DNA of 64,000 nucleotides, from positions 96,001 to 160,000 of IMG/VR virus record IMGVR_UViG_3300023202_000336; one strand, given 5' to 3'. Shown here one piece after another: positions 1,571 through 63,685 of the stretch. This DNA comes from a virus. How positions within the stretch are numbered: the stretch's first letter is position 1; every line of letters begins with the position of its first letter. The translations under genes and the position numbers were made by a program. The notes under the pieces were generated by a model. That model ran no database searches, was not told where the DNA came from, and was given only the letters and a program-made list of their open reading frames with translations.

Positions 1571-4004
1571 GCGAATTGACCCTCATGGGACGCTGGCGTT
1601 ACTGGGAGTCGACGTTGGTCGGATATATCCGACATCGACTGATTGTCCACTCTGTAGATCGATCGGCAACCTCGAAATCAGGTCTGCGCACCATTTCCAC
1701 TGCCGGAACTGTCACTTCATCGGCGACATCGTCGAATTCTATGCAAGTGCGAAAGGGCTAGAGCTCGCAGAGGCGGTCAGCGAGCTCCCGCGACTCGGGG
1801 TCGCCGATTTCGAGGGTCGACATAAGTTCTACCTCGAGAAGAAGGAGCAGCAGCAGGAGCTGAAACAGTTCTTCGCCAGCGCTTCCGAGACCTTTACGAA
1901 GAATCCACCGCAGTCGACTCCCGAGATCATCTCGCGCCTGAAGATCCGCCATAATCGGCAGGTCTTCAAGCATCTCCAGCCGCACGTCGGGATCGCTCTT
2001 CGATCGCAATTCAAAGAGCTGGATATGAAGCTCCCGAAGCATGCGAAAGAGGCGCTCAGGCTCTGGGGGGTACGTTGGGCACTCGTGATCCCGACGTGGT
2101 CAGACGCCGACGTAGTCGGGATGTGGGTCATCACGAAGAGCAACGCTTGCTACCTCCCTTTCACGGATGAGATCAACTATCCGGCAGCCTTTGCGATGGT
2201 CCCGTCGATCCACGACGACACGGTCGTTGTGGTCGACGATATTCTGGCGGCGCTCCGCATGAGTGTCTGGTCGGTACTCGAGACGGGGCGTTGCCACGGG
2301 TTCGTCGTACCGTACGGTCTCAACGACCGGGCGGAGCTCTACAGCTGCGGGAAGACCGTTTTCTGGTCGGTAACGCGGAACCTCTCGTGGTTAATGCGCG
2401 CGATTTCGACGCCAACAGCGGCTATTCTCGATTCGAAGCTGATCGGTGACTTCGATCCGCTCGAGTCGTATCCGTGTCGCGGGAGCTTCGTCCAATTCAA
2501 ACGTCTCGTTTCCGAAGCGCTCCCTGCGCATCAGCAGCTCGCGGCGGATCTCACTTCGCTCAAGAAGAGCGAAGCACGATCGATGCTCTCCGGCGCGTCG
2601 TTCGAACCGGGTGAGAAGGCGAAGATGCTCGCGTACGTACAGGGATCGGACAGCATCTTTCTGTCGCAGCTCTTCGACGACGAGGTCGATACGGTCGCGG
2701 TGACGTGGGATGGTGAGACGATTTACGACACCGAAGAAGGATGGCGCCTCCCTGGTGGGAAGGTAATCGCGTCGGCGAAGCTCTTCATTGATCAGATACA
2801 TGCTGCAAGCGACGCGAACGAAGCTCTGGTACGAGGGTCGATCGTCTTCAACAAGCGGAGCTATATTTTCCGAGAGAAGCTCGGAATCATTCAGGAGAAC
2901 CCGGCGAAGTGGATTACAAATTATCTCGTCGGTATCGGTGCTTCGGGCGGTATCCCCTACTTCGATATGAAGTGGAAAAAGAAGTTGATCGAAGTTGCGC
3001 AGCAGTTCCAGGAGCCAGAGGTTATTTCGGAAGCGCAGGGTTACGGCTGGCGCGGGCCGGAGGACCGCAAGTATCTGCGGATGCCGAGCTTCGTAGTCGA
3101 TTCTACGGGGGTCCATCCTACCGCTGGCCTTATGGAAGGCCCTGCGCTCGTCCTCCCGCACCCGCTTTCGTCGCGCGAGTGGAGTGCCTTCCGAAGCATG
3201 AGTTTTGCGCGATTGGTGCTCGTGTTTTTAGGGACGATGGTTCGAACGCGCCAAGGGTTCCCGGGATTTGGAATCATGTTGACGAACGAGCCACATGTAA
3301 TCGCACGAATAGCTTACACGATCTCGGCAGACGTCGTCAGTTGCCCTTCGAACGAATACATCGATCAGCACCTTTTCGATCCGTTGCCGCTCTTCACCGA
3401 GTGGAACGAGCAGAGCATTCCGAAGATTTTCGAGAAGCGCGGAATGAAGAACATCATGCTAAGCGTCGATTCGCATACCGCTGAGGTGAGTAAAATCTAT
3501 ACCGATTGGGTACACCTTCGTATCGGGGACATCGTCGATTATCAGGCGCTTCGAGCAGTCTTTCTCCTGCTCCCGAAGTTACTCCACGACGACAAAATCG
3601 ACCCAGCGTCCCCCGAGTTCTTCAAGCGTATTGCTGCTTCGCTTCAGGCTGAGCTCGATGAGAGTTGTGACGGTCATCAGCTTCTGATGGCCGCGTCTCA
3701 ACTCGATCACTACTGCAGCTGTAGAAATCAGTTTACCTCGGCGAGCCGTCTTCTCGAATTCATATTCTATGGGATCGAGCGAGATTTCATCACCCCGCGT
3801 ATCGAAGACGACGGCGTCGTGATACTTCACGAGGAGTTCCTCGCCGCTACGTCGAGTACGCTCGTACCGGTTCCGTCGCTTTCGGAGCTGACGGAAACGT
3901 TCTCCGAAGCACGTTTCCTCGTTCCCGACCGTAAACCACGTAGCGCGTGGAAAATCAGCCGAACGACCTGGGACGTAAATCAGACACTGATCGCCGCCCG
4001 TTAA
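1569..4004 (+). CDS. Primase-associated protein with an N-terminal CHC2-like zinc finger (~811 aa)
   Basis: CPLC...FHCRNCHFIGDIVEFYASAKGLELAEAVSEL resembles the DnaG-type Zn-binding domain; the remainder is unassigned (possible degenerate Toprim and DUF927-like region). Confidence 0.55.
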   Translation: MRIDPHGTLALLGVDVGRIYPTSTDCPLCRSIGNLEIRSAHHFHCRNCHFIGDIVEFYASAKGLELAEAVSELPRLGVADFEGRHKFYLEKKEQQQELKQFFASASETFTKNPPQSTPEIISRLKIRHNRQVFKHLQPHVGIALRSQFKELDMKLPKHAKEALRLWGVRWALVIPTWSDADVVGMWVITKSNACYLPFTDEINYPAAFAMVPSIHDDTVVVVDDILAALRMSVWSVLETGRCHGFVVPYGLNDRAELYSCGKTVFWSVTRNLSWLMRAISTPTAAILDSKLIGDFDPLESYPCRGSFVQFKRLVSEALPAHQQLAADLTSLKKSEARSMLSGASFEPGEKAKMLAYVQGSDSIFLSQLFDDEVDTVAVTWDGETIYDTEEGWRLPGGKVIASAKLFIDQIHAASDANEALVRGSIVFNKRSYIFREKLGIIQENPAKWITNYLVGIGASGGIPYFDMKWKKKLIEVAQQFQEPEVISEAQGYGWRGPEDRKYLRMPSFVVDSTGVHPTAGLMEGPALVLPHPLSSREWSAFRSMSFARLVLVFLGTMVRTRQGFPGFGIMLTNEPHVIARIAYTISADVVSCPSNEYIDQHLFDPLPLFTEWNEQSIPKIFEKRGMKNIMLSVDSHTAEVSKIYTDWVHLRIGDIVDYQALRAVFLLLPKLLHDDKIDPASPEFFKRIAASLQAELDESCDGHQLLMAASQLDHYCSCRNQFTSASRLLEFIFYGIERDFITPRIEDDGVVILHEEFLAATSSTLVPVPSLSELTETFSEARFLVPDRKPRSAWKISRTTWDVNQTLIAAR

Positions 4005-5662
4005 TCGAGCGGCTGTTTTTCCATCAATTTCGCGAGCTCTTCGTCGGGCTCTTCCGGATCGCGGAGCGTCGAATACTTACCGACCTTCTTCGTGATCCCC
4101 ATATACTCGGCGATCGTATCGGCGTCCCAGCTGATCATTCGAGCACGTTCGGCGATGTTGTACTTCTTATGATGTTCGTGTGGAACACACGAGGGGGTAC
4201 GTTCGTGAAAGAAGTGAGCAAGAGGACCACCTACACGAATTACTTTTGCACCGAGCTTCTGCGCCCGCGCAACCACCTCGTCATCCTCTGCGCCCCAGCC
4301 ACGGAAAAGCTCAGAAAAACCACGAATATGACGAAGGAAAGAAGTACGGTGAAGGCAAATACCGCCGCCAATAACCTGATCAAAAGCATGGTCATAATTC
4401 CTCGGGTCGTTTACGGCGCTGAAGTCGAACTCTCCGTATTTTGCGTCTCGAATGAACTTTCGATGAAGATGATAGAAGATAGAATAAGGCATTGCGATAT
4501 CGGCGTCGCCTTCGACGATATTTTCGTACGCTGTTTGAAGACTCTGCCCTGGGATGATAGTATCGGTATCCCACACTGCTATGGCTTTTGACTCGATCCA
4601 CGGAAGTACCGTATTGAAGGGGCGGCCACGGCACCACACTTCAGCTTTACTTCGTTGTACGAATACGTAGCGGATACGATCATTATCTTTGAAAAAGTTG
4701 AAGAGCTTCGGTTCATCGTCTACTTCTACTACGTAAAGTAATGGTACGTGAAGTCTTTTCGTTACGTACTCTGACACTACTAACAGGTTCTCGAGTCTAT
4801 CGGTCGAATCGATTTTCACGGGCATGATTGCGGTGAGTTCGTTGAGCATAGTTTCGGCCCCTACTGTATTACAGGAATTCGACGCGACATTTTTCGGTCT
4901 TTCTAGGAACTGGCGAGCAGCGACGTTAAAGGTCGTATCTTTTTCAAAGATATCTGATTCACGTATATGTTTAAGGAACGGCTCATACGCCACCTTTTGA
5001 CATAGATCTATTACGTAGGACTGTGAAAAGTTAACGTTGTTTTCGTATAACATAATACGCCCCTGGTCGTCCCAAGTATTTCGGCCGAAGCCATTCAGAA
5101 TCACCCCAGATACAAGCTCTGGATATTTTGATCTGAGCGCCGTCGTGACTTCTCCGGTGTATATCCCCCATCCTTTCAGAATATAGTGCGCGTAAGTAAG
5201 ATAGATTTTTAGAAACTCACTACCAGCCGGTGCTAAAAGTCCGCTGGTCATCAAACGCTGTGAGCCATCAGAGAGGTATTCCCATGGTACAAGGCACTTA
5301 TTAGTATTCAGAAACGGTTTAAGATCTTTGAGGAACAAAGTATCTATATCGTAATAGACCCCGCCCCGTTCGTAAACGATTTCAACTCTTGCAAGGTTTG
5401 AGATAGCTGCGTGGTTCGGCATCGTTTCGCCGTTAATTTCTCGTTTAAAGTTGTAGTACTCGACATTGGCATACTTTTTAGCGCTGTTCCAATACTCGTT
5501 ATCCTCCGGTTCCGGGCCGTCAATATATATTGTAATCGATTCCGGATCCTGCGTATCGTAACATGATTTAATACTTAGGTAATGATAAAGACAAAACGGT
5601 TTAGCATCCTTACCGTTAACAGGGAGTACGAGGAATATAAAATGGAATTTTTTTGGAATCAT
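4001..5662 (-). CDS. Two-domain glycosyltransferase (N-terminal DxD sugar-binding/GT32-like, C-terminal GT2/GT7-like)
   Basis: ERGGVYYDIDTLFLK (DxD); WDTDTII and FRGWGAEDDEV motifs. Confidence 0.8.
   Translation of the reverse strand: MIPKKFHFIFLVLPVNGKDAKPFCLYHYLSIKSCYDTQDPESITIYIDGPEPEDNEYWNSAKKYANVEYYNFKREINGETMPNHAAISNLARVEIVYERGGVYYDIDTLFLKDLKPFLNTNKCLVPWEYLSDGSQRLMTSGLLAPAGSEFLKIYLTYAHYILKGWGIYTGEVTTALRSKYPELVSGVILNGFGRNTWDDQGRIMLYENNVNFSQSYVIDLCQKVAYEPFLKHIRESDIFEKDTTFNVAARQFLERPKNVASNSCNTVGAETMLNELTAIMPVKIDSTDRLENLLVVSEYVTKRLHVPLLYVVEVDDEPKLFNFFKDNDRIRYVFVQRSKAEVWCRGRPFNTVLPWIESKAIAVWDTDTIIPGQSLQTAYENIVEGDADIAMPYSIFYHLHRKFIRDAKYGEFDFSAVNDPRNYDHAFDQVIGGGICLHRTSFLRHIRGFSELFRGWGAEDDEVVARAQKLGAKVIRVGGPLAHFFHERTPSCVPHEHHKKYNIAERARMISWDADTIAEYMGITKKVGKYSTLRDPEEPDEELAKLMEKQPLD
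4822..4850. repeat. 29-bp direct repeat, copy 1 (copy 2 at 5709-5737)
   Basis: gcatgattgcggtgagttcgttgagcata vs gcatgattgcggtgagttcgtttagcata, 28/29 identical. Confidence 0.9.
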
Positions 5663-8989: not shown

Positions 8990-9931
8990 ATGACAGACAA
9001 AATAGAAAAACTGACTCCAGAGCAAGAAGCTCTGGTGCCCGTTTACCGCCAGCGATACTTCGATATCGGCTGGTCGACGGACGAGACCGATCGGGAGGCG
9101 GCCGAGAAGGCCATGCGAGAGTTGCACGAGATCAAGGGTTGGGATCAGCCGGAGATCGTCTGGTTCCAGAGCCCCTACGCGGCCGTGGACACGATCATCG
9201 AGTCCTCGGACAAAGATCCCGAAAACACCGATATTTCGATGAACGGCCCCTGCGCCGCGCTGGACGCGGTATGGGGGTGCTTCTACAAGTTCGGCGAGGA
9301 ACTAAAGCCGGACATGTATAAGGAGGAGGACAGTCGTCTGCTCGACGCCTGGGACCGACTGTGCAAGAGCTGCGGCCCCTGCTGGCTCTATACCAATTAT
9401 GTCCTGATGACGGACAAGCCGGTGGAGGCCCACTACAACGATGGGGAGCTCGTGCACTGTGACACGGGCCCCGCACTACGGTATTCAGATGGTCACGAGA
9501 TGTACGCTATCGACGGCGTGCGTTTGCCGCGGTCTATCGCCAAGAAGGCAGTGATGACTCCTTGGGAGATGACGCTCGAGGAGATCGAGGATTCGGATCT
9601 CGACGAGGATGTCCGCACCATCCTGCAAGACAGGTGGTGCTACAATGAGATCGATGATGCCGGCGATTACGTCGGTTCGGGTGGCGGTCGTTTTCTCAAG
9701 GAGACCGGTGCCGTTTCGATTCACGAGGACGTATACAAGGCTTACAAGGACGTGGCCATCATGCGAAGCCTCCTGCGCGACAAGTACGGCAGGAAGTGGT
9801 TGATGTGCGCTGATTCGTCGACCACGCGAGTGTACTACATTCGCGTCGATGACTCGGCGAGCACGTGCGAGGAGGGGCACATGTCGATCAACGGCGGTAC
9901 CCCAGACAGTGATATCCAGGTCAGCTCGTAG
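8990..9931 (+). CDS. DUF6745-like phage protein
   Basis: IEKLTPEQEAL...DREAAEKA...VWFQSP...HCDTGPALRYSDG...YAIDGVRLP pattern; AGGAG RBS before ATG 8990. Confidence 0.6.
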   Translation: MTDKIEKLTPEQEALVPVYRQRYFDIGWSTDETDREAAEKAMRELHEIKGWDQPEIVWFQSPYAAVDTIIESSDKDPENTDISMNGPCAALDAVWGCFYKFGEELKPDMYKEEDSRLLDAWDRLCKSCGPCWLYTNYVLMTDKPVEAHYNDGELVHCDTGPALRYSDGHEMYAIDGVRLPRSIAKKAVMTPWEMTLEEIEDSDLDEDVRTILQDRWCYNEIDDAGDYVGSGGGRFLKETGAVSIHEDVYKAYKDVAIMRSLLRDKYGRKWLMCADSSTTRVYYIRVDDSASTCEEGHMSINGGTPDSDIQVSS

Positions 9932-10005
9932 CAGGCCCTGGTTGCTTTTCCATTTCACACCGTTTTAATTTTTGCCAACCAAAGAACCCGAGAAGGAGCA
10001 ACAAC

Positions 10006-10452
10006 ATGTCCGAAGACAGCATACTCGAGGTCAGCGAACGCATGCATATCTCGGCCCGCAAGGGCGCCGACCCCGAGACCCGCTTGATCGATGGCATTAC
10101 CGCCACGATCGACTACGGCAAGAGGGGCCGCCAGGGCGACGTGTACCTGAAGCGCCTGACATGCGACCGCAAGCTGGTCAAGGGCCTGAGGAAGACAGAC
10201 AACCCGCAGCTGGTGCCCGGTACCTCCATCGGCAGCCGCCACACGCTGCGGATGGACCGCGGTGAGGAGATCTACCTCCGCAAGAATCCCAGTCCCCTCC
10301 AGGGGCCGATCATCTACGCGCCGAACGGGTTCTACCTCGAGCATCCGAAACACGCGGACTTCGATTGCCGTCTGCCCGGCGTTTACGAAGTCACCTTCCC
10401 GGCCGACAAGGTCGCAGAAGAGCTCGGCGAGATCCGTCGCCGGATCGACTAG
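10006..10452 (+). CDS. Hypothetical protein (148 aa)
   Basis: AAGGAG RBS; GC3-rich codon usage. Confidence 0.7.
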   Translation: MSEDSILEVSERMHISARKGADPETRLIDGITATIDYGKRGRQGDVYLKRLTCDRKLVKGLRKTDNPQLVPGTSIGSRHTLRMDRGEEIYLRKNPSPLQGPIIYAPNGFYLEHPKHADFDCRLPGVYEVTFPADKVAEELGEIRRRID

Positions 10453-10470
10453 TCGATCCACTGATCCTCG

Positions 10471-10497
10471 CTGCAGCTCGTCTAGACGAGCTGCAGC
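10471..10497. terminator. Perfect GC-rich hairpin after the 10006..10452 gene
   Basis: ctgcagctcgtctagacgagctgcag inverted repeat; no clear U-tract; ends approximate. Confidence 0.35.
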
Positions 10498-10550
10498 GAG
10501 GACATCCGCCGCGACCTGAAGATCGTCTCATAAGACCGAAAGGAAGAAAC

Positions 10551-10856
10551 GTGGATCGAGGTAATACCTGGCCTGAGCAGGAGGTCATCGAGGCCTGGGC
10601 TCAGCGTCATGGAATCAAGGCGTCGAATAAACAGCTCATGGAGCTCAAAGAAGAAATGACGAAGCTCTCGTGCAGTTTCGATAAAGCGCGACTTGTATTT
10701 CTCGCGGGCGAAGTATTCGATCAGATAGGTGACGTAGATGTACATGAGCAAGCATTTTTATACGCGAGCGCTTTCGGCCGCGAAGAACCGAACGATGACG
10801 ATTACTGTGCTGCGGTACGGGACGCAATCGATCACGGTATGGAACTCGATCTATGA
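10551..10856 (+). CDS. Hypothetical protein (101 aa)
   Basis: GTG start after an AAGGA RBS, within track ORF 10365..10856. Confidence 0.55.
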   Translation: MDRGNTWPEQEVIEAWAQRHGIKASNKQLMELKEEMTKLSCSFDKARLVFLAGEVFDQIGDVDVHEQAFLYASAFGREEPNDDDYCAAVRDAIDHGMELDL

Positions 10857-10880
10857 GGCGAATGTCTTCTATGTTACGAT

Positions 10881-11096
10881 ATGAAAGCAACTATCGAATA
10901 CGAGTTGCCGGATGACGAAAAAGCACTTATCGTGGCATCTTGTATTAACAAAATACTAGGAGGAGCATCTGAAGCTCACGAACAGCTTCGTATGCTTCTC
11001 AAGCACGAAGAAGATATATCGGAAAAGATTCGCGAGAAGATAGTGGACATAATAAAAAACCTCTATGAGGATACGCAAATAATAGATCTCGTTTAA
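10881..11096 (+). CDS. Small hypothetical protein (71 aa)
   Basis: ORF fills the gap between co-oriented genes. Confidence 0.55.
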   Translation: MKATIEYELPDDEKALIVASCINKILGGASEAHEQLRMLLKHEEDISEKIREKIVDIIKNLYEDTQIIDLV

Positions 11097-11108
11097 TAAG
11101 GAGAAGAA

Positions 11109-11627
11109 ATGAGCAAAGTAAAAGCGGTAACGTTTGTTATCGTAGTTGCTGCAGTAACGTTTCTCGTTGTCGAGGGTGTCCTTCCGGTGCTGGTTGCAGC
11201 TTTCGAAGCCGGAGCACAGGACGAACAGAGGTCGTCAACAGCGATAGAAAAGGCAGAGGAACTGCCGAGGACGGTGAAGGTCGAAGCGGTCGCTACGGGC
11301 TACTGTCCGTGCGAGAAGTGCTGCGGTCGATTCGCCGATGGAATAACGGCGAATGGAAGGTCGGTTGAGATGCATCCGTATGGGATTGCCGCTGATCCTT
11401 TGGTATTGCCGTACGGGGCGAAGATCGATGTCCCCGGGTACGGTCGTGCCGAGGTCGACGATACCGGAGCGGCGATGAGTAATTCTGAGGTCCCTCACGT
11501 CGATCTCAGGTTCAAGACACACGACGAGGCTCTCGAGTGGGGTCGACGAGATGTCATCTTAGAGGTCTCGACGGTCAATCTCGTGAGGGACCAGATCGAG
11601 TCCCTCCTCGCCCATACGCTTCGGTAG
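11109..11627 (+). CDS. 3D (Asp-Asp-Asp) domain protein with N-terminal membrane anchor; putative peptidoglycan lytic transglycosylase
   Basis: ATGYCPCEKCC, GITANG, IAADPLVLPYG, VDDTGAA, VDLRF motifs; hydrophobic N-terminus. Confidence 0.85.
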   Translation: MSKVKAVTFVIVVAAVTFLVVEGVLPVLVAAFEAGAQDEQRSSTAIEKAEELPRTVKVEAVATGYCPCEKCCGRFADGITANGRSVEMHPYGIAADPLVLPYGAKIDVPGYGRAEVDDTGAAMSNSEVPHVDLRFKTHDEALEWGRRDVILEVSTVNLVRDQIESLLAHTLR

Positions 11628-11705
11628 CTCAGCGGAAGAGTAAGTCTACTACGTGTGTTGCGTAGTGCGAGGGTCGGCCGGTGATTTCTGGATGTTCGGT
11701 CGGCC

Positions 11706-11777
11706 CTCGTTTATGCTCGCTCAGGAGCTTTGTATCTGAGACTCGGGCGAAATCCGTCGAGGCCCCGTATCTGAGAC
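11706..11777 (+). CRISPR. Degenerate mini-array upstream of the cas12 gene: full variant repeat, 16-nt spacer, 3' half repeat
   Basis: atgctcgctcaggagctttgtatctgagac (11713-11742; 26/30 to array core), tcgggcgaaatccgtc, gaggccccgtatctgagac (11759-11777). Confidence 0.75.
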
Positions 11778-11824
11778 GCATCTGATATCGGAGCCTCGTC
11801 CCACCAACCGCTAAGGAGAACGAG

Positions 11825-13549
11825 ATGCAAAGAGGACGCGATCCAGCGAATATTTACAGCTTCGCTGCATACGTATACCGCGAGGATTACGAGCGGACCG
11901 GCGATATACTGTTCAATGCGAACCGGTTCGGAAACGCGCTTGTCGCGATCGAACTCCACCGTCGCGAAGAGTGCGAGAAAATACTTCGACAGTGCTCGAA
12001 GGATTACACGGACGCGCGCGCCAAGGAAGACGCGCTCGTCGACCACCTTCAAGCGATCGGCAAGGAGCTGGGTCGATATCGCCAAAAGAAGCGTGAAAAG
12101 AAGACGCCGAAGGAGCTCCGTGAAAAGTACACGGAGGTCGAAGGGCAACTCGAGAAGCATCGAAACAGCGTGGTGCTTCCGATCCGCCGGGAGCTCTACA
12201 GGAGCCCCAAAGTCAAGAAGCTCCTGAAGAAGCTACATGAGAAGGTAACCGCGGATAAAAAAGAAGCGCGGGCCAACAGGAACTGTTACTGGGGGACGGG
12301 TGGTCTCGTGGAGAAGGCCCACGAGAATGACGGAGAAGGGCCGCCTCCGTCATTCAAGCGATTCGACGGAACCGGTCGAATCGGTGTGCAGCTCCAACAG
12401 CAGTCAGGAGCTCCTCCGTGGACCCCGGAGCGGCTCACGAGAGAGAACACTCTCCTGATGCTCGATGTGGACCAGATGCCCGATGATTTCGTCGGCGCCG
12501 ATCTGAACACAAGGTACAAGAAAAGTCAGAAGAAACGCTGTCCGGTCCGTATGAGGATCGGTTCGGAGAAAGCCAAGCCGGTGTGGCTCGACTTCATGGT
12601 CAAGTTCCATCGACCGCTTCCAGAAGGCTGCAAGATCAAAGCAGCCTGGATCCTTTTCAAAAAGGTCGGGACGCATACGAAAACGTATTTTCAAACGCAA
12701 GTGGCGCGTCCCGAGGGGTTCATGAGAGACGACGTCGCCGATGGCGGCCATGTCGCGGTCGATCTTGGCTGGAGAAAGTTCGAGGACGACCGGGTCCGCG
12801 TCGCCTACTGGCTCGGAGATGATGGAGAACAGGGTGAGATCGCTCTCGATCCGGAGCTCCTGAGCCGAGACCGGAAGAACCGGTCACTCCAGTCGATCTA
12901 CGATCGACAGTTCGACTCCATGAAGGAGCTCCTCCATGGCTGGATCACCGAGCACAAGAGTTCGGTTCCGGAGTGGCTGAAGGAGGAGACGAAGACCCTG
13001 CCGATCTGGAGATCGAGGTCCCGCTTGGCAAAGGTCATCATCAAGTGGAGGAAACACCAGTTCGACGGCGACGTCGAACTGTATAAAACCGCCGAAAAGT
13101 GGCGGAAGAAGGACAAGCACCTCTTCGACTGGCACAAGTTCCAGGCGAGGATCATCAGGGAAAAGCGGAAGGCGCTTTTCCGAGAGGAAGCGGCAAAGCT
13201 CGCGAGGCGTTATCGCTGCGTCATATTCGAAGATATGAAGATCAGCGATATGGCCAAGGACTCACCGGTGAGCAGCGATGACATGGATCCAATCAAGGAT
13301 ATCATGAAACTCGCGTCGCCAGGGGAGCTTCGAATGGAGTTCGAGAGTCGATTCCGAGACTCCACCAGACAGAAGACGAAGAACACGACGAGAGAATGTT
13401 CGGAGTGCGGTTTCGTTGACGGAGAGTTCGACTTCGTGAATCTGTACCACGAATGCCCGAACTGTCAGGCGGAGAAGGATCAAGATCTCAACGCCTGCGA
13501 GAACCTCCTCGCACGAGAGTTGGGGCCACCAGACGCTTCGGCCGCTTGA
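11825..13549 (+). CDS. cas12: Compact type V CRISPR effector, Cas12m/V-U1-like, 574 aa, RuvC triad D-E-D
   Basis: RuvC-I VAVDLGWR (D313), RuvC-II VIFEDMK (E469), Zn finger CSEC...CPNC, RuvC-III DQDLNA (D554); FKRFDGTGRIGVQLQ and KDKHLFDW motifs recall the V-U1 family; adjacent CRISPR array. Confidence 0.85.
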   Translation: MQRGRDPANIYSFAAYVYREDYERTGDILFNANRFGNALVAIELHRREECEKILRQCSKDYTDARAKEDALVDHLQAIGKELGRYRQKKREKKTPKELREKYTEVEGQLEKHRNSVVLPIRRELYRSPKVKKLLKKLHEKVTADKKEARANRNCYWGTGGLVEKAHENDGEGPPPSFKRFDGTGRIGVQLQQQSGAPPWTPERLTRENTLLMLDVDQMPDDFVGADLNTRYKKSQKKRCPVRMRIGSEKAKPVWLDFMVKFHRPLPEGCKIKAAWILFKKVGTHTKTYFQTQVARPEGFMRDDVADGGHVAVDLGWRKFEDDRVRVAYWLGDDGEQGEIALDPELLSRDRKNRSLQSIYDRQFDSMKELLHGWITEHKSSVPEWLKEETKTLPIWRSRSRLAKVIIKWRKHQFDGDVELYKTAEKWRKKDKHLFDWHKFQARIIREKRKALFREEAAKLARRYRCVIFEDMKISDMAKDSPVSSDDMDPIKDIMKLASPGELRMEFESRFRDSTRQKTKNTTRECSECGFVDGEFDFVNLYHECPNCQAEKDQDLNACENLLARELGPPDASAA

Positions 13550-13556
13550 GAATGTT

Positions 13557-13599
13557 TTCGAGCGGCTACGTCGTCGATAAGATGACGTAGTCGCTCGAA
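13557..13599 (+). terminator. 19-bp hairpin directly after cas12 (terminator or accessory RNA element)
   Basis: ttcgagcggctacgtcgtc-gataa-gatgacgtagtcgctcgaa with two G-U wobbles, followed by gtctttta. Confidence 0.65.
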
Positions 13600-13650
13600 G
13601 TCTTTTATGCGATATTGTTTATATATAAAAATTTTGACAGTACTGTTAGA
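13600..13650 (+). promoter_or_regulatory. AT-rich CRISPR leader / putative array promoter
   Basis: tattgtttatatataaaattttgacagtactgt directly before the first repeat. Confidence 0.5.
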
Positions 13651-14229
13651 TATGCCCGCTCAGAGGCTTCGTATCTGAGACGAGGCGCGTGATCTCGAAC
13701 TCCTGGAGTATCCGCGTCGCTTATGCCCGCTCAGAGGCTTCGTATCTGAGACTGGGGCCTGCCAAACCACGCCCGCTTATGCCCGCTCAGAGGCTTCGTA
13801 TCTGAGACAGCGCTAGGTGAAGGCTGGCGGGGATGCCACGACCGTTTATGCCCGCTCAGAGGCTTCGTATCTGAGACGGATCGTTTTGGTGGTATCCCGC
13901 TTATGCCCGCTCAGAGGCTTCGTATCTGAGACGCCAATCCATCCAGGTACCCGCTGATGCCCGCTCAGAGGCTTCGTATCTGAGACTAGGCGCGTGATCT
14001 CGAACTCCTGGAGTATCCGCGCCGCTTATGCCCGCTCAGAGGCTTCGTATCTGAGACCCGCCTCGAGCACCCGTTTCGGGGGCGTTGATATCCCGCTTAT
14101 GCCCGCTCAGAGGCTTCGTATCTGAGACGACCACGCCTGCCGTCTCCGCGAACTCGGCTTCGCCCGCTGATGCCCGCTCAGAGGCTTCGTATCTGAGACG
14201 CCAATCCATCAAAGCCTCGTACCTGAGAC
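13651..14229 (+). CRISPR. CRISPR array: 9 repeats plus a degenerate terminal half repeat; 37-nt consensus CCCGCTTATGCCCGCTCAGAGGCTTCGTATCTGAGAC
   Basis: Invariant 30-nt core ends at 13681, 13752, 13808, 13877, 13932, 13986, 14057, 14128, 14199; stem CTCAGA/TCTGAG; spacers 34, 19, 32, 18, 17, 34, 34, 34 and ~14 nt. Confidence 0.97.
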
Positions 14230-14248
14230 ACCAACCAAGGAGAAAACC

Positions 14249-14809
14249 ATGCGTTTAGTCTGTGTTCTACTTTTCGTGTTCGGCCTCTGTGCCGAAGAAA
14301 CCTCCAAACTCCCCAGCACCGCCCAGCGTCTCGTCGATCGCCACGATCACGCGCTGGCCGAACTGCGTGAGCGATACCTCGCCGACGTCGCCGACTTGCG
14401 CGAAGACGTCACCCACGACCTCGAGCGGGAACTCAAGAAGACGACCCGTCGCGGCGACCTGGAAGGGGCCCTCGCGATCAAGGAGAAGATCACCGCGCTC
14501 AAGGAGCAAGAGGAGGCGATCGCTGAAGCGCCGACCGATTTCCTCGGACGTAAGAGGCAACCTGAATTCGTCGGAAACACCTACCGATACAGCTCATGGT
14601 GGGTTCGCTTTGATAAGGACGGGTCGGTGAAGACAAACTGGACTTCCCGCGACCTGAGAGACGGTGAATGGAGGATGGAAGGCGAAGAGATCGTCCTCGA
14701 ATTCAACGGGGAAGAGCACGTGAACCGCGCCTTCATCAACGAGGATGGAGATCTGGATTTTAACGGGGCGCAGCTGTTCCGCCTCGAGGAGAAGGACGAG
14801 GACGAATGA
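14249..14809 (+). CDS. Secreted/exported coiled-coil protein, paralog 1
   Basis: Signal-peptide-like N-terminus; LERELKKTTRRGDLEGALAIKEKI; AAGGAG RBS. Confidence 0.75.
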   Translation: MRLVCVLLFVFGLCAEETSKLPSTAQRLVDRHDHALAELRERYLADVADLREDVTHDLERELKKTTRRGDLEGALAIKEKITALKEQEEAIAEAPTDFLGRKRQPEFVGNTYRYSSWWVRFDKDGSVKTNWTSRDLRDGEWRMEGEEIVLEFNGEEHVNRAFINEDGDLDFNGAQLFRLEEKDEDE

Positions 14810-14847
14810 TCCTGATCCTGGATCAGTCGCCAGGAAAGGCGGCGAAG
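14806..14847. repeat. 42-bp exact duplicate of the 5' end of the 15455 gene (truncated remnant)
   Basis: atgatcctgatcctggatcagtcgccaggaaaggcggcgaag is identical at 14806-14847 and 15455-15496. Confidence 0.95.
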
Positions 14848-14882
14848 GCATACGCAGACAACGACCTCGTGGAGGAAGAACC

Positions 14883-15458
14883 GTGCGAATTCTGATGGCT
14901 ACGCTATTCTTGTTGCCGACCCTCTCCCTGTCCTCCGAGGAGGAGCAGGACCCGATGCCCGCGTCTGCCAAACGGACCGTGGCCCAGCACGATCGCGAGG
15001 TGCAGCGCCTCAAAGAACGCTACCTGTCCGACCTCGCCGAAATCCGCGAAGACACCCTTCGCGACCTCGAGCGTGACATGGAAAAGACGACCCGTCGCGG
15101 CGACCTCGAAGGGGCCCTTGCGATCAAGGAGAAGATCACTGCGCTCGAGGAGCAAGAAGAAGAGATCGCTGAGGCACCGACGGATTTCCTCGGGAACGCG
15201 AAGAAGCCGTTTTTTGCTGGTAGAACTTTTAACCATGTGCGCGGTGGTGGTTACCATATCGCATTTTCGGAGGATGGAACGTTGACGACGACGAACTGGG
15301 GCCACAGGTACAACGTCGGCGAATGGACCTTTGAGGACGGAACTATCCACATGGTTTTCGAGAACGGCGGTAACCCACATGAAGCAGAGGTAGATCCAGA
15401 AAACCAGAGGCTCACCTTCATGAACGGTGACGTTTACGTGATCTCGGAAGACAAATGA
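14883..15458 (+). CDS. Secreted/exported coiled-coil protein, paralog 2
   Basis: GTG start after GGAGG; signal-peptide-like N-terminus; shares TTRRGDLEGALAIKEKITAL...EAPTDFLG with paralog 1; different C-terminal domain. Confidence 0.75.
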   Translation: MRILMATLFLLPTLSLSSEEEQDPMPASAKRTVAQHDREVQRLKERYLSDLAEIREDTLRDLERDMEKTTRRGDLEGALAIKEKITALEEQEEEIAEAPTDFLGNAKKPFFAGRTFNHVRGGGYHIAFSEDGTLTTTNWGHRYNVGEWTFEDGTIHMVFENGGNPHEAEVDPENQRLTFMNGDVYVISEDK

Positions 15459-16012
15459 TCCTGATCCTGGATCAGTCGCCAGGAAAGGCGGCGAAGTGCT
15501 ACGCGGATAGAGATATTTCGAGAGGAGTAAATGACGTTATAGAAGTTCTCGAAAACGTGTACCTTCGCCGCCTTCGGCGCGATTATGATGACTCGTCTCC
15601 ATTCGTATCGTGGTGCGGTCTTACGTATCGTAACTTCATGTGGCTTTATTGGCTCGGTTGGTTTCTCGGCATCGAGTACTTCGTGTTAAAAGATAAAGAT
15701 CATAAAAATTCTCTGAAGCTAGATAGCATCAGAACGGAATACGAAAAGCTATCGAAAGGGATGAAGAGACCGCTTCCTCTTTCGTCGTGGCCTCAATCAC
15801 CGTTACCAGCAAAGTTTCGTATGCCGCTCTCAGAGTCGGATCTTCATCCAGCTTCAAAAGGTGACGCGCATCCAGCCGTGTTCGCCTACAGAAACTACTA
15901 CCAGACGTTTCCGGATCGCGAGTGGAGACGTCGAGAAAAACCGTTGTGGTGGGATCCGGCAAGTGCTGAAGATCCCGACGATTTCACCGAGACGATCATG
16001 GCGGTCGTCTAA
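15455..16012 (+). CDS. Pyrimidine-dimer DNA glycosylase (DenV/Pyr_excise)-like protein, divergent
   Basis: MILILDQSPGKAAKCYADRDI N-terminus, WLYWLGWFLGIEY and AYRNYY resemble this family; the usual HxNHP segment is not evident. Confidence 0.45.
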   Translation: MILILDQSPGKAAKCYADRDISRGVNDVIEVLENVYLRRLRRDYDDSSPFVSWCGLTYRNFMWLYWLGWFLGIEYFVLKDKDHKNSLKLDSIRTEYEKLSKGMKRPLPLSSWPQSPLPAKFRMPLSESDLHPASKGDAHPAVFAYRNYYQTFPDREWRRREKPLWWDPASAEDPDDFTETIMAVV

Positions 16013-16024
16013 TTACGCGGAGGA

Positions 16025-16627
16025 ATGATGACGAAAACGCGTAGAAAAATGGTTGAGGTTTTAAATACATCGCTTCTCGATTTGGAAGATCTTGCGCTCA
16101 AAAGATTAGAAGAACGGAAGTTACCGGGTGATCCCAGTATTCCAGACGGTCTCCGTAGAGCTATAGAGGCGTTATCGAGAGCTGATCTGAAACCTGTTAC
16201 TAAGGAGTCGATTTGCGATGCTATGGCAGAATTGGCGCAGTTTCCTATATCAGATCCCGGCTATATAGCCTTCCGTAATAGTAAGTTAGATATAGGGGCA
16301 AGTGTACTCGTTGGTACACCGATTTACGTGAAAGCGAAGCGTAATCCGAATAATCATAATTATGCGACTGGCCACGTGTTTTTTGCAAGTTCAAATATCG
16401 ATAATACTTGGTCGTTAGGTATATTAAACAGCGGCACTATTGGTTTGGGAAATAGTCCTCCCGATTCTTTCGATGGAGTAGAGAGTTATTATCTCAGAAT
16501 AGCTACCGCAGACGAGGTACGTAGGACCATAACCGTTATGGTACAGATTATTAACCGCGAAGCTGTCGAAGTTAAAACCATGGGAATAATAGTAGGTTAC
16601 TTAGATACAGCTTTAAAAGAATTGTAA
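16025..16627 (+). CDS. Hypothetical protein (200 aa)
   Basis: GGAGG RBS; long ORF. Confidence 0.65.
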   Translation: MMTKTRRKMVEVLNTSLLDLEDLALKRLEERKLPGDPSIPDGLRRAIEALSRADLKPVTKESICDAMAELAQFPISDPGYIAFRNSKLDIGASVLVGTPIYVKAKRNPNNHNYATGHVFFASSNIDNTWSLGILNSGTIGLGNSPPDSFDGVESYYLRIATADEVRRTITVMVQIINREAVEVKTMGIIVGYLDTALKEL

Positions 16628-16647
16628 GCAGTATTCTTTTGTTGATT

Positions 16648-16677
16648 ATGCCCGCTTAGGAGTTGCGTATCTGAGAC
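16648..16677 (+). repeat. Solitary variant CRISPR repeat (copy B)
   Basis: atgcccgcttaggagttgcgtatctgagac, 25/30 to array core; stem kept via G-U pairs. Confidence 0.85.
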
Positions 16678-16691
16678 AAAGCAACCAACAG

Positions 16692-16718
16692 CGACCCACT
16701 GGGTCGTTTTTCTTTTTT
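16692..16718 (+). terminator. Intrinsic terminator 14 nt after solo repeat B
   Basis: cgaccc-act-gggtcg followed by tttttctttttt. Confidence 0.7.
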
Positions 16719-21090: not shown

Positions 21091-22809
21091 TCATATCGAC
21101 TCGACGAATACCTCAGCGAGCTTCGGCCATCTATTGAGCATGTGATAGATGGCCATCACCCCGAAATTAATGGCGTGTACCACGTCGTCGGTTCTTCTAC
21201 TCATCCGTTTAACGAGTCTCTTCGGAGATCCGCGCGGATTATCGATGGACTCTTCGTAGATGTTAAGGAAGTCACGAAGATGGTCATCGAGGTACTCATC
21301 GTTCTTCGGCAGGAGCACCTGTCCTGACTTGATAAGTTCACAGAGTAGGAGGACCGAGCGTGGTTTGTCGAGTGTAAAGCTCGAACGAGCGCCGATTAGT
21401 TTCGCCGGCTTGTTGTAAAAGACGAGCGGTTTAGTAGTAGCGGTAACGCTATAAGTAAAAGGAATTACTCTTTCAGCCGGCCACCCAGCGGCGTTGAGCA
21501 TCTGCTCCTGAACGTTTCCTTGTCCGCCGTAATCGATAGCTACATATTCGGAATGACTCATACGTGCGACGTTTGCGACGAGTTCCGCTTCGTGTGCATG
21601 ATCTGTCTCATACGGGATCTTATGAAGCCATTTCACTTCTATCACACCCGACGTGAGCACGCCCATCAAGGCGACTGCGGTATTAGATACGAAGTCTTCC
21701 GTATCGGTGGTTTTCTCTTTACCACGTCCGCCCCAGTCAACTCCCACCAGCTGCATGATGTACTGACCGTGAGGCATGTTCTCAGGGTGACACGGTTCGA
21801 CCTTACATGCTTCGCGAATCTGTTCGGCGGTAATAACTTTCGCACCGACGTCGTACGACTCTCCGAGAATCTCGTTATGAAAGACATATGCGGGCTTGTT
21901 CTTCTGAACTTCGAGTATTTCCTGCCACGAATTCGGAGATTCGTAGTGCATAGGAAGGGTCGGTTGTGAGACGTGATATCCTGCGAATTTAGCCCGGCGC
22001 TCGGGAAAATCGTGAACGAAAAATCCGAGCTTACTATTCAGCGGCTTACCGCACTTAGAGCATACGAGCGTCTTGGACCCTAACATCTGAAGCAAGTCAC
22101 CATCGACCGCCGATCGGTTTACACGTTTGCATCCGATTTCCTGACACGGTATATGCCATATCCCTTGAGAAGAGTCCTCCCAGTACAGCTGTATCGGATT
22201 ATCAAATGTTTTCGGCGTACCCGTCATTCGCATGATTTTAAACGGAGACGCACCCATACAGGCTTCGATGATAGGTATGTCCTCGATAGCGAAATCCTGG
22301 GTTTCATCGAGATCTACTTCGTCTGCAGGAACTCCTCGAATGCGGTTCGGATCCCCGTGTGAGTACATGTAGTAAAGATTCGATTCGTTACCAATGCTTC
22401 TCTGTAGTACAGTATCGATGCTTTTATCTCCGATTATGAACCGCTTCGCAGGAGACGTCGAGAGGAACGGTTTCACGTAGTTCTGACTGAATTTACGTAC
22501 CTGCTCGAAGAGAGGCATGACTGTGAGAATGTTGTAGAACGGTTGCGCAGATGCTCTCAGTATCTGAGACGCCGCCATATTTGTACTTTTCGACGTCTGG
22601 CGCCCGGTACGGAAAATCATACGTCTGGGCATATTTTTCAGGCGAAACATCGGTTCGAAGAGAAAATGAGACCACTCGAGAGAGTACGGTTTTCCTCTTA
22701 AACTAAATAACAGCGGGAGCATCTTTGAAAGTGGGCGATCATCGCAGTGGTCGTATTTTTCGAGATACGACTCGACCTGATCCGCGACCTGTAAGGGACT
22801 CCCCGTCAT
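21091..22809 (-). CDS. terL: Terminase large subunit (GpA-like)
   Basis: Walker A RTGRQTSKST, Walker B ADEVDLDETQD, motif III MTGTPKT, nuclease VGVDWGG...DDVVHA; start set at MTGSP (track ORF extends to 22932, overlapping fic). Confidence 0.85.
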   Translation of the reverse strand: MTGSPLQVADQVESYLEKYDHCDDRPLSKMLPLLFSLRGKPYSLEWSHFLFEPMFRLKNMPRRMIFRTGRQTSKSTNMAASQILRASAQPFYNILTVMPLFEQVRKFSQNYVKPFLSTSPAKRFIIGDKSIDTVLQRSIGNESNLYYMYSHGDPNRIRGVPADEVDLDETQDFAIEDIPIIEACMGASPFKIMRMTGTPKTFDNPIQLYWEDSSQGIWHIPCQEIGCKRVNRSAVDGDLLQMLGSKTLVCSKCGKPLNSKLGFFVHDFPERRAKFAGYHVSQPTLPMHYESPNSWQEILEVQKNKPAYVFHNEILGESYDVGAKVITAEQIREACKVEPCHPENMPHGQYIMQLVGVDWGGRGKEKTTDTEDFVSNTAVALMGVLTSGVIEVKWLHKIPYETDHAHEAELVANVARMSHSEYVAIDYGGQGNVQEQMLNAAGWPAERVIPFTYSVTATTKPLVFYNKPAKLIGARSSFTLDKPRSVLLLCELIKSGQVLLPKNDEYLDDHLRDFLNIYEESIDNPRGSPKRLVKRMSRRTDDVVHAINFGVMAIYHMLNRWPKLAEVFVESI

Positions 22810-22858
22810 TATGCCGCAACTTTTATTGCACAATTGCGAAAATGCAAGGAGCTTTTCG

Positions 22859-23404
22859 ATGACCAAGCCATTACCCCTTGATGTAACGAAACTTAGGGAT
22901 TTCGTGATAGAATCAAATACGGTCGAAGGCATCGTCAGAGACGAGAAAACACTTAAGGAGGAGGTAGAAGCTCACGAGCGACTGCTTCGGTGCAAAAAGG
23001 TCGAGGTTCGAGACGTCGTAAGACTCGTGAACACAGTGCAGCCGAACGCTCAGTTCAGGGATCATCAAGATATCCCGGGAGTCTGCGTGATAGCGAGGGT
23101 GCAGCGTCGGCATCATACCGAGACAGTCGTTATGTCCGAACCTCCAGAGAGTGGACCGCTCATCAGGGCCCGTCTACAAGACGTGCTCGATAAAGTCGAG
23201 AGGATGGAGAACGTTTATACGAATCATCTTCTTTATGAAGAGCTTCACCCTTTTACCGACGGGAACGGTCGTTCAGGACGGGCGGTATGGCTATGGCAGA
23301 TGTTGCGTACTGATATACCGTGGGGTTATCGATTCGAGCTACCGTTCCTGCAGAAGTGGTACTATGACTCGTTCTCTATGCTCGCTCAGGAGCCTCGTAT
23401 CTGA
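22859..23404 (+). CDS. fic: Fic-domain protein (AMPylase-type motif)
   Basis: Canonical HPFTDGNGRSGR; AAGGA RBS before ATG 22859. Confidence 0.9.
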   Translation: MTKPLPLDVTKLRDFVIESNTVEGIVRDEKTLKEEVEAHERLLRCKKVEVRDVVRLVNTVQPNAQFRDHQDIPGVCVIARVQRRHHTETVVMSEPPESGPLIRARLQDVLDKVERMENVYTNHLLYEELHPFTDGNGRSGRAVWLWQMLRTDIPWGYRFELPFLQKWYYDSFSMLAQEPRI

Positions 23405-23407
23405 GAC
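23334..23407 (+). repeat. 73-bp direct repeat copy 1 (fic 3' end plus solitary CRISPR repeat C at 23378-23407)
   Basis: 69/73 identical to 23916-23988; repeat C atgctcgctcaggagcctcgtatctgagac is 26/30 to array core and contains the fic stop codon. Confidence 0.9.
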
Positions 23408-23915: not shown

Positions 23916-23989
23916 TCGAGCTACCGTTCCTGCAGAAGTGGTACTATGACCCGTTCACTATGCTCGCTCAGGAGCTCCGTATCTGAGAT
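23916..23989 (+). repeat. 73-bp direct repeat copy 2, containing solitary CRISPR repeat D (23960-23989)
   Basis: atgctcgctcaggagctccgtatctgagat, 25/30 to array core. Confidence 0.9.
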
Positions 23990-63170: not shown

Positions 63171-63668
63171 ATGAGTGAGCTTATATCACTACGGTTGATA
63201 ATAACTGTACTCGCATTGAGCGCCGGGGCTAGTTATGGAGCCTTGACCAGGCATAGCTTCAAAAGTCTTTATGACAAGGTTTATATAGTTTTCGGTCGCG
63301 TTTTTTATTCGTTTTTTCCGTTCGCACTTTTGTTCACAATTGCTGGTGTATTAGTATTGATAAACGCAATACTATTCCTTCCTGAACCTTTCAAGCTGTG
63401 TTTTTGTATTTTCCTTGGTTTTCCAGCATACGCGGTTGGTAATATATCTGCAGCATGGCTTGCCCGAGTTAGTGTAATATCGGTCCAATGTCCGAATCCG
63501 ACATGCCGGTATATATGTACAAACTGGAGTGCGTTCAATCCACGGCCGGTAATGAAGTGTAAAAGGTGTCACAGTGAGTTCATGTTTCATATGCTCAAGG
63601 ACAATATGGTGTACGCCAAGACACTCCAAGACTGTGCTCGCCGGAGCCTCGTATCTGATGCTCGCTAG
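63171..63668 (+). CDS. Membrane protein with a C-terminal Zn-ribbon-like motif (165 aa)
   Basis: Three hydrophobic segments, then CPNPTC...CKRC. Confidence 0.6.
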   Translation: MSELISLRLIITVLALSAGASYGALTRHSFKSLYDKVYIVFGRVFYSFFPFALLFTIAGVLVLINAILFLPEPFKLCFCIFLGFPAYAVGNISAAWLARVSVISVQCPNPTCRYICTNWSAFNPRPVMKCKRCHSEFMFHMLKDNMVYAKTLQDCARRSLVSDAR

Positions 63669-63685
63669 AGCTTCGTATCTGAGAC
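63634..63685 (+). repeat. Two fused degenerate CRISPR-repeat copies (copy E) over the gene 3' end
   Basis: gtgctcgccggagcctcgtatctga (63634-63658) then atgctcgctagagcttcgtatctgagac (63658-63685). Confidence 0.75.

What the first reader, a model, noticed from the sequence alone, without database searches (positions are those of the whole stretch)
11706..11824. Degenerate mini-array forms the 5' UTR of cas12 itself: possible autoregulation
Upstream of the cas12 ATG lie a full variant repeat, a 16-nt spacer, a 3' half repeat, 12 nt, a remnant (ggagcctcgt) and then ccaccaaccgctaaggagaa. This parallels the tail of the main array (repeat, 14 nt, gcctcgtacctgagac, accaaccaaggagaa, ATG 14249). So cas12 and the post-array gene share a repeat-derived leader, and cas12 sits like a gene-sized spacer between repeats. 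Processing by Cas12 would cut its own mRNA leader (inference).
Basis: partly seen in the sequence, partly recalled or inferred. Interest (0 to 1): 0.7.

Follow-up and report, generated by a model that had tools for sequence, protein, structure and literature searches.

The report
Cas12m RNA handle in cas12m leader
A 180-kb phage that carries its own non-cutting CRISPR protein (Cas12m) has placed an intact copy of that protein's RNA-binding handle, plus decayed repeat pieces, just in front of the cas12m gene; about a dozen similar single copies sit in front of other phage genes, so the protein probably docks on its own and other phage messages, but this has not been tested.

Summary
At 11707-11742 lies a full 36-nt repeat variant. 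It is followed by 16 nt, a 19-nt 3' half repeat, further repeat debris, a ribosome-binding site (RBS) and the cas12m ATG at 11825. The array tail before the gene at 14249 is built the same way.

- **The protein.** It is a Cas12m (type V-M).
- **The repeat.** It is not worn down. A model trained only on repeats from other Cas12m loci scores it 25.0 bits, against 24.9 for most array repeats, and both scaffold helices are intact.
- **Not unique to cas12m.** The complete phage genome holds at least 13 intact units outside the array. All lie on the coding strand, in intergenic leaders.
- **Recurrence.** Six of 56 other Cas12m loci also carry a unit 35-101 nt upstream of cas12m; controls gave none.
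- **No DNA target.** I found no target for the 16-nt spacer, so a CreR-type promoter-targeting circuit is unsupported.
- **Best reading.** This is a Cas12m docking and cutting site in the cas12m mRNA leader, one member of a phage-wide set. The direction of any feedback is unknown.
- **Alternative not excluded.** Leader and tail could simply be a duplication or recombination scar.

Earlier notes of this scan report the same arrangement on this genome and on other phages. I found no published description for type V-M. No RNA data were available.

The parts
11707..11742 (+). Full 36-nt Cas12m repeat variant (psiR1) of the 'dispersed' class. Both scaffold helices are intact.
   Evidence: Scores 25.0 bits with a model trained on other loci only. 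Infernal 30.3 bits, E = 2e-4. Stem I carries a compensatory change relative to array repeats.
11743..11758 (+). 16-nt spacer-like segment (psiS) in the guide position.
   Evidence: No match with 2 or fewer mismatches in the 180-kb genome and no local seed match.
11759..11777 (+). 3' half repeat. It has the 3' strands of both helices and lacks the 5' strands.
   Evidence: 12.2 bits. Does not score as a scaffold.
11778..11799 (+). Repeat debris. The first 12 nt resemble the last 11 nt of the repeat (8 of 11). The following 10-nt remnant matches the tail half repeat, and 11793-11798 is complementary to 11758-11763.
   Evidence: and direct reading.
11800..11824 (+). RBS region shared with the post-array gene.
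   Evidence: Shuffle test p about 0.0008.
11825..13549 (+). cas12m, 574 aa, with an Asp-Glu-Asp RuvC triad and a C-terminal zinc ribbon.
   Evidence: PADLOC Cas12u1 1.5e-81. PDB Cas12m 6e-47 and Cas12m2 1e-24. Alignment.
13556..13600 (+). Terminator-like 20-bp hairpin with a T-run directly after cas12m, followed by the AT-rich array leader.
13646..14199 (+). CRISPR array of 9 full 36-nt repeats. Spacers are about 33-35 nt and 18-20 nt; two spacers are duplicated.
14200..14248 (+). Array tail: 13-14 nt (the start of a copy of spacer 5), a half repeat, then the shared RBS region. This is the paralogue of the cas12m leader.
14249..14809 (+). Post-array gene (186 aa, N-terminal hydrophobic segment, function unknown). 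No terminator-like site was found between it and the array.
16642..16677 (+). Solitary unit followed 12-14 nt later by a terminator (16690-16708), upstream of the ORF starting at 16734.
23372..23407 (+). Solitary unit in an intergenic leader.
23954..23989 (+). Solitary unit in an intergenic leader, downstream of a terminator-like hairpin.
63649..63685 (+). Unit with a 2-nt deletion, preceded by a partial unit.

Best explanation
The stretch is a Cas12m-cognate leader module. It has one intact crRNA scaffold (psiR1, a stem plus pseudoknot), then a short guide-position segment and decayed repeat 3' fragments, then the RBS of cas12m. It is a paralogue of the array's terminal module. It is also one member of a phage-wide set of at least 13 intact scaffolds in coding-strand leaders.

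Proposed mechanism, all steps inferred:
1. Transcripts entering from upstream carry psiR1. No terminator-like site lies between the preceding gene and cas12m.
2. Cas12m binds psiR1 as it binds a pre-crRNA repeat and cuts just upstream of the scaffold.
3. The half repeat cannot form a scaffold, so no second cut follows.
4. The product is a crRNA-mRNA fusion: a cas12m message whose 5' end is a Cas12m-occupied handle.
5. The fate of the message (stability or translation) therefore depends on free Cas12m. That free pool is also competed for by the array and by the other scaffold-bearing messages.

The sign of the feedback cannot be read from sequence. I lean to negative feedback or titration. Direct masking of the RBS is unlikely here, because the RBS lies about 70 nt after psiR1.
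For: - The protein is a Cas12m.
- Repeats of 29 Cas12m loci share a two-helix pseudoknot: 91.9% of cells paired, compensatory changes at all 9 pairs, and 0 of 500 shuffles as good.
- psiR1 keeps all 9 pairs and scores like an array repeat under a model trained without this phage.
- The dispersed class differs from the array class by a compensatory change that strengthens stem I.
- All 22 Infernal hits and 24 unit hits of at least 12 bits are on the + strand. The strongest minus-strand hit reaches 10.9 bits.
- Units lie between genes, 15-140 nt before start codons.
- Six of 56 other distinct Cas12m loci have a same-strand unit 35-101 nt before the cas12m ATG. Control sequence gave 0 hits in 193 kb.
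- In L046 the last array repeat and the next solitary unit each precede a gene through the same short leader.
- Cas12m2 and MsCas12m cut pre-crRNA upstream of or within the repeat (PMC10442227, PMC11013384).
- A terminator follows cas12m and none precedes it.
Against: - There is no transcript, binding or cleavage evidence at all.
- No sigma-70-like promoter was found for the leader. The phage has its own RNA polymerase according to earlier scan notes, so transcription start sites are unknown.
- Within this genome, covariation is no better than shuffles; only one pair shows a double change.
- The module around psiR1 is visibly decayed (half repeat, debris), as expected of a scar.
- Only 11% of other loci have a leader unit.
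- The geometry does not explain how binding would change translation.
Confidence: 0.45

Rival explanations
1. CreR/crlRNA-type regulatory mini-array. psiR1 plus the 16-nt spacer is matured into a short-guide crRNA. This steers the DNA-binding, non-cutting Cas12m to a partly matching site: the cas12m promoter, another phage promoter, a host gene or a competitor. Binding there represses transcription.
For: - The architecture (repeat, short spacer, degenerate repeat, next to the effector gene) matches CreR as described for type V-A (10.1101/2023.03.10.532045).
- Cas12m is by nature a transcriptional roadblock (PMC11013384).
- Short spacers mixed into arrays recur across Cas12m loci, so short guides seem tolerated or used.
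- L046 has 8 units with spacers of about 11-19 nt directly before cas12m.
Against: - The spacer has no match with 2 or fewer mismatches anywhere in the complete 180-kb genome. The four 3-mismatch hits compare with about 1.3 expected by my own estimate; in the window alone, one such hit against 0.9 expected from shuffles.
- The best local seed matches around cas12m and around the array leader are at random level, 8-9 of 12.
- The same holds for the short spacers of L046 within its locus.
- The PAM is unknown, and no protospacer was found for any spacer.
Confidence: 0.2
2. Evolutionary scar with no regulatory role. The leader and the array tail are direct duplicates left by insertion, duplication or unequal recombination of the cas12m-array cassette at repeat units. 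At most they serve as recombination sites for loss or regain of the cassette.
For: - Leader and tail align as paralogous modules, 76% identity over aligned columns.
- Both contain an internally deleted repeat-spacer-repeat; the tail spacer is the first 11 nt of spacer 5.
- Debris follows the half repeat.
- An analogous remnant, a solitary repeat next to the last array repeat at an empty V-A site in Francisella, was read as a recombination target (10.1101/2023.03.03.530964).
Against: - psiR1 itself is undamaged and scores as well as array repeats.
- Leader units recur in six independent, distantly related loci whose Cas12m is 25-34% identical, always on the coding strand.
- The phage keeps about a dozen further intact units.
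Confidence: 0.2
3. Decoy (Racr-like) or promoter. Either the solitary units soak up a Cas12m of the host or of a rival phage, or the conserved 31-36 nt are a promoter or other signal for the phage's own RNA polymerase that happens to resemble the repeat.
For: - Phage solitary repeat units that act as RNA anti-CRISPRs are known (PMC10651486).
- Units at 23372 and 23954 sit just after a shared extended -10-like motif and downstream of terminators, so some transcripts may start at a unit.
- The units cluster in regions of small accessory genes.
Against: - The phage encodes the matching Cas12m and an array with the same repeat.
- The units fit a family-wide Cas12m scaffold model built from unrelated contigs, which a phage-specific promoter would not.
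- Known Racrs, as I recall from the literature (not checked here), occur singly or in a few copies with their own promoter and terminator, rather than as a dozen copies inside mRNA leaders.
Confidence: 0.1

Closest known systems
Solitary repeat units upstream of cas12a in type V-A loci (Shmakov et al. 2023, bioRxiv 10.1101/2023.03.03.530964)
   Same: A standalone repeat-like sequence lies next to and upstream of a single-effector type V gene. It is conserved in some clades and no target is recognisable. A solitary unit next to the last array repeat was proposed there as a recombination remnant, which parallels the leader/tail pair here.
   Different: Here the subtype is V-M, the system is phage-borne, the unit is full-length and structurally intact, and it belongs to a genome-wide set in the leaders of unrelated genes. 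That paper reports no V-M cases; V-M appears once, in its discussion.
CreR / crRNA-like regulatory mini-arrays (types I-B, I-E, V-A; bioRxiv 10.1101/2023.03.10.532045)
   Same: The layout is a repeat-like sequence, a short spacer and a degenerate repeat beside the effector gene. The expected logic is the same: Cas level is sensed through competition with crRNAs.
   Different: CreR works through partial complementarity of its spacer to the cas promoter next to a PAM. No such target exists here.
Type V-M CRISPR-Cas: Cas12m2, GoCas12m, MsCas12m (PMC10442227, PMC11013384)
   Same: The protein family, the 36-nt repeat with stem and pseudoknot, the array directly downstream, and the absence of adaptation genes all match. 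These enzymes bind DNA without cutting it and process their own pre-crRNA.
   Different: Published systems are described as arrays only. Leader units or dispersed units were not reported in the papers I read.
RNA anti-CRISPRs (Racrs) and phage Cracr RNAs (PMC10651486; bioRxiv 10.1101/2024.10.29.618823)
   Same: These are phage-encoded solitary repeat-like units that Cas proteins bind.
   Different: They mimic host repeats in order to disable host Cas. Here the phage carries the cognate cas gene, and the units lie inside its own mRNA leaders.

Membership tests
Type V-M (Cas12m) CRISPR-Cas locus | Effector homologous to Cas12m | tested here: met
   PADLOC Cas12u1 1.5e-81 over residues 29-565. 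PDB Cas12m 6e-47 and Cas12m2 1.3e-24.
Type V-M (Cas12m) CRISPR-Cas locus | Adjacent array of about 36-nt repeats that fold into the conserved stem plus pseudoknot | tested here: met
   9 repeats at 13646-14199. The fold is supported by covariation over 29 loci.
Type V-M (Cas12m) CRISPR-Cas locus | No adaptation module | tested here: met
   No Cas1 (PF01867) match in the complete 180-kb record. Cas2 and Cas4 were not searched.
Type V-M (Cas12m) CRISPR-Cas locus | PAM-dependent DNA binding without cleavage, and self-processing of pre-crRNA | not testable with these tools
   Known for characterised members, including Asp-Glu-Asp variants (PMC11013384). Assumed here, not shown.
CreR / crlRNA regulatory mini-array | Repeat-like sequence, short spacer and degenerate repeat next to the cas gene | tested here: met
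   11707-11777.
CreR / crlRNA regulatory mini-array | Spacer partly complementary to the cas (or cargo) promoter beside a PAM | tested here: not met
   No seed match above random level within 11300-11900 or 13500-13700, and none in the genome with 2 or fewer mismatches.
CreR / crlRNA regulatory mini-array | Cas-dependent repression relieved by excess crRNA | not testable with these tools
   Needs a reporter assay.
Solitary repeat unit upstream of a type V effector gene | Standalone repeat-like sequence outside the array, adjacent to and upstream of the effector gene | tested here: met
   psiR1 ends 82 nt before the ATG.
Solitary repeat unit upstream of a type V effector gene | Recurrence in related loci | tested here: met
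   6 of 56 other distinct Cas12m loci; controls gave 0 hits in 193 kb. This is a minority feature.
RNA anti-CRISPR (Racr) | Mimics the repeat of a host CRISPR system that the phage itself does not encode | tested here: not met
   The phage encodes the cognate Cas12m and array. The host is unknown.

The most novel reading that the evidence does not exclude
Cas12m in this phage, and in other Cas12m-bearing phages, works not only as a DNA-binding guide enzyme but also as an RNA-binding and RNA-cutting factor for a regulon of phage messages. Each message is marked by a crRNA scaffold in its leader, and the cas12m message is one of them. The array itself serves as the 5' leader of the downstream operon. 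The result would be natural crRNA-mRNA fusion transcripts whose fate is set by the pool of free Cas12m.
Probability: 0.35. Interest if true: 0.85.

Novelty: new variant of a known kind. Interest (0 to 1): 0.6.

Why it matters
Repeat-like units beside cas genes are known to regulate Cas levels in types I, II and V-A, always through a DNA target. Here the unit has no detectable DNA target. It sits inside the message of a naturally non-cutting effector and is repeated before many unrelated phage genes.

If Cas12m acts on these RNAs, a virus would be using a CRISPR effector to process or control its own transcripts. That would be a new role for CRISPR parts. It would also be a ready-made natural example of the crRNA-in-mRNA designs used in synthetic biology.

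The work also gives practical cautions:
- RuvC mutants are not processing-dead controls for Cas12m.
- Short spacers and half repeats are common in this family.

Tried and rejected
- **Target search for the 16-nt spacer, the following 20 nt and all array spacers.** I searched the window and the whole 180-kb genome and found nothing beyond chance.
- **Protospacer search with the whole array.** No match against the phage and plasmid collections. No exact 20-mer of spacer 1 in viral contigs. The 29 hits of that 20-mer in prokaryote genomes, many in Micromonospora, do not extend beyond the 20-mer and are chance. The PAM therefore stays unknown.
- **Homology of the 16-nt spacer to spacers 5 and 9.** Alignment A5 suggested it, but it is not significant, so I dropped the claim.
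- **Direct RBS masking by Cas12m bound at psiR1.** Rejected on geometry: the RBS is about 70 nt downstream.
- **Synteny in relatives lacking cas12m.** The post-array protein has no relative in viral contigs. The upstream 3D-domain protein finds only unrelated small phages.
- **Rfam.** No known RNA family in 9000-16000.
- **Global fold of the leader.** Not unusually stable, z = -1.4.
- **Promoter scan.** No sigma-70-like promoter in the leader.

Full report
**What is there**

- a full 36-nt repeat variant (psiR1, 11707-11742; 6 of 36 differ from the array consensus);
- 16 nt (11743-11758);
- a 19-nt 3' half repeat (11759-11777);
- 12 nt that resemble the last 11 nt of the repeat (8 of 11);
- a 10-nt remnant;
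- an RBS region and the ATG at 11825.

The tail of the main array is built alike: repeat 14164-14199, then 13-14 nt that copy the start of spacer 5, a half repeat ending at 14229, the same RBS-proximal motif, and the ATG at 14249.

A pairwise alignment places the two modules in register at 76% identity over aligned columns, with a 27-nt extra stretch in the leader. The RBS-proximal part is more alike than 5000 shuffles allow (p about 0.0008), though part of that is the Shine-Dalgarno sequence. The apparent similarity of the 16 nt to spacers 5 and 9 is not significant.

**The gene and its family**

ORF 11825-13549 is a Cas12m:
- PADLOC Cas12u1 1.5e-81;
- solved Cas12m structures at 6e-47 and 1e-24;
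- an Asp-Glu-Asp RuvC triad and a zinc ribbon.

Published work shows the following for Cas12m enzymes, including Asp-Glu-Asp variants. They bind DNA next to T- or C-rich PAMs without cutting it. They use a 50-60-nt crRNA whose repeat part forms a stem and a pseudoknot. They cut their own pre-crRNA upstream of or within the repeat, in a way that RuvC and WED mutations do not abolish (PMC11013384; PMC10442227).

The record is a complete IMG/VR virus genome of 180 kb with direct terminal repeats. It has phage replication genes and a terminase and no Cas1.

**Is psiR1 a working scaffold?**

I collected 77 loci encoding Cas12m relatives (25-36% identical). Most have an array directly downstream. 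Their consensus repeats align well.

A two-helix pseudoknot is strongly supported on that alignment: 91.9% of cells are paired, all 9 pairs show compensatory changes, no shuffle out of 500 does as well, and slid controls collapse.

A position and pair model trained only on the other loci gives psiR1 25.0 bits, the same as most array repeats (24.9). Background in 360 kb peaks at 10.9 bits. psiR1 belongs to a 'dispersed' sequence class whose stem I differs from the array class by a compensatory change and pairs better. So the unit is a variant, not a degenerate copy.

The half repeat lacks the 5' strands of both helices and does not score as a scaffold.

**It is not unique to cas12m**

- The same unit occurs all over the genome, always on the + strand, which carries most long ORFs.
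- Infernal finds 22 hits at E of 0.01 or less: 9 in the array and 13 solitary.
- nhmmer adds partial copies.
- The solitary units lie between genes, 15-140 nt before start codons. Several form mini-arrays with short spacers or are followed by an extra copy of the repeat's last 11 nt.
- They cluster near the CRISPR locus and in the small-gene region that spans the genome ends.

Earlier notes of this scan describe the same dispersed units on this genome and similar arrangements on other Cas12m phages. I reached the observation independently and treat those notes as agreement, not as evidence.

**Does it recur before cas12m elsewhere?**

Yes, in a minority of loci. Among 56 other distinct loci with at least 250 nt of upstream sequence, six (L004, L007, L022, L026, L028, L046) have one or more same-strand units within 500 nt upstream. 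The opposite strand and the cas12m coding regions gave none in 193 kb.

The last unit ends 35-101 nt before the likely ATG.
- In L007 a -35/-10-like pair sits just before the unit, so the message may begin with the handle.
- L046, from a 94-kb viral contig, has eight units with spacers of about 11-19 nt directly before cas12m. Its last array repeat and the next solitary unit each lead into a gene through the same short leader.

Mixed long and short repeat periods occur in several arrays of the family. The short spacers of this array and the 16-nt segment are therefore a family trait.

**Guide or docking site?**

A CreR-type circuit needs a partly matching target near a promoter (10.1101/2023.03.10.532045). 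I found none.
- No match with 2 or fewer mismatches for the 16 nt in the whole genome. The four 3-mismatch hits are few, against about 1.3 expected by my own estimate; within the window, one such hit against 0.9 expected from shuffles.
- Local seed matches are at random level.
- No protospacer for any spacer in the collections searched, so the PAM is unknown.

A target in the unknown host cannot be excluded.

**Transcription context**

A strong terminator-like hairpin follows cas12m (13556-13600). No terminator-like site lies between the preceding gene (which ends at 11627) and cas12m, or between the array and the gene at 14249. The next one is at 16690-16708, right after the solitary unit at 16642.

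This fits read-through into the cas12m leader, and an array transcript that continues into the downstream operon. No sigma-70-like promoter was found in the leader, and the phage's own polymerase signals are unknown.

**Most likely mechanism**

Cas12m binds psiR1 in the leader RNA and cuts just upstream of it. Because the next repeat is only a half, no second cut follows. The cas12m message then stays fused to a Cas12m-occupied handle. Its fate depends on free Cas12m, for which the array and the other scaffold-bearing messages compete.

What is shown: the scaffold identity, strand, placement and recurrence. What is inferred: transcription, binding, cutting and effect. The sign of the feedback is open, and RBS masking is unlikely here because the RBS is about 70 nt downstream.

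I put this at 0.45. The rivals are:
- a guide-based regulator with an unseen target (0.2);
- a duplication or recombination scar, as proposed for the solitary repeat at an empty V-A site in Francisella (10.1101/2023.03.03.530964) (0.2);
- a decoy or a promoter (0.1).

**Comparison and novelty**

The nearest described things are solitary repeat units upstream of cas12a and CreR mini-arrays.
- The CreR membership test fails on its defining feature, a promoter target.
- The solitary-unit description fits, but here the subtype, the phage setting and the genome-wide spread are new.
- Papers on Cas12m that I read, including a 2026 preprint reporting a phage Cas12m, describe arrays only.

I rate the finding a new variant of a known kind, with moderate to high interest. 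The larger reading, Cas12m acting on a regulon of phage messages, remains possible and testable.

Noticed in passing
window 13646-14229; loci L006, L007, L016, L021, L029, L030, L046, L060: Cas12m arrays often mix the usual 72-75-nt period with short periods of about 28-60 nt, which implies spacers of roughly 10-24 nt. Here the spacers are 18-20 nt versus 33-35 nt, and two spacers are duplicated. Short spacers look like a family trait.
   Followed up: partly
genome 161617-161628, 164395-164405, 168836-168854, 172930-172940, 179589-179601 (outside the window); window 11778-11789 and 14213-14229: Many full units are followed at once, or within about 13 nt, by an extra imperfect copy of the repeat's last 11-13 nt. 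This would sit in the guide position, or could offer an alternative 3' strand for stem II. I have no explanation.
   Followed up: no
window 23337-23371 and 23919-23953: The units at 23372 and 23954 share about 35 nt of upstream sequence ending in an extended -10-like motif, and the second lies downstream of a terminator-like hairpin. Some transcripts may therefore start exactly at a unit.
   Followed up: no
window 11758-11798 and 14181-14219: In both the leader and the tail, the remnant after the short spacer is complementary to the stem I 3' strand region of the preceding (half) repeat (6-7 bp). This gives a hairpin in the minimum-energy fold of the leader.
   Followed up: partly
L046 5574-5640 and 6005-6060: In a 94-kb viral contig with a distant Cas12m, the last array repeat and a solitary unit about 400 nt further on are each followed by the same 12-nt leader with an RBS-like stretch. 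A start codon follows about 17 nt after the last array repeat, so RBS and start would fall in the guide position there.
   Followed up: partly
L078 170-960 (minus strand) and 2927-4570: An 87-kb viral contig holds a degenerate array of very similar repeats and a terminase about 40% identical to the one at window 21091-22932. It is probably a distant relative of this phage.
   Followed up: no
window 48436-48606: A weak match (E = 1.7e-4) of the Cas12m C-terminal zinc-ribbon region inside a 392-aa open frame elsewhere in the phage.
   Followed up: no
window 14249-16627: Four co-oriented genes of unknown function follow the array with no terminator-like site in between. They end at the solitary unit plus terminator at 16642-16708, so the array may serve as the 5' leader of this operon.
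   Followed up: partly
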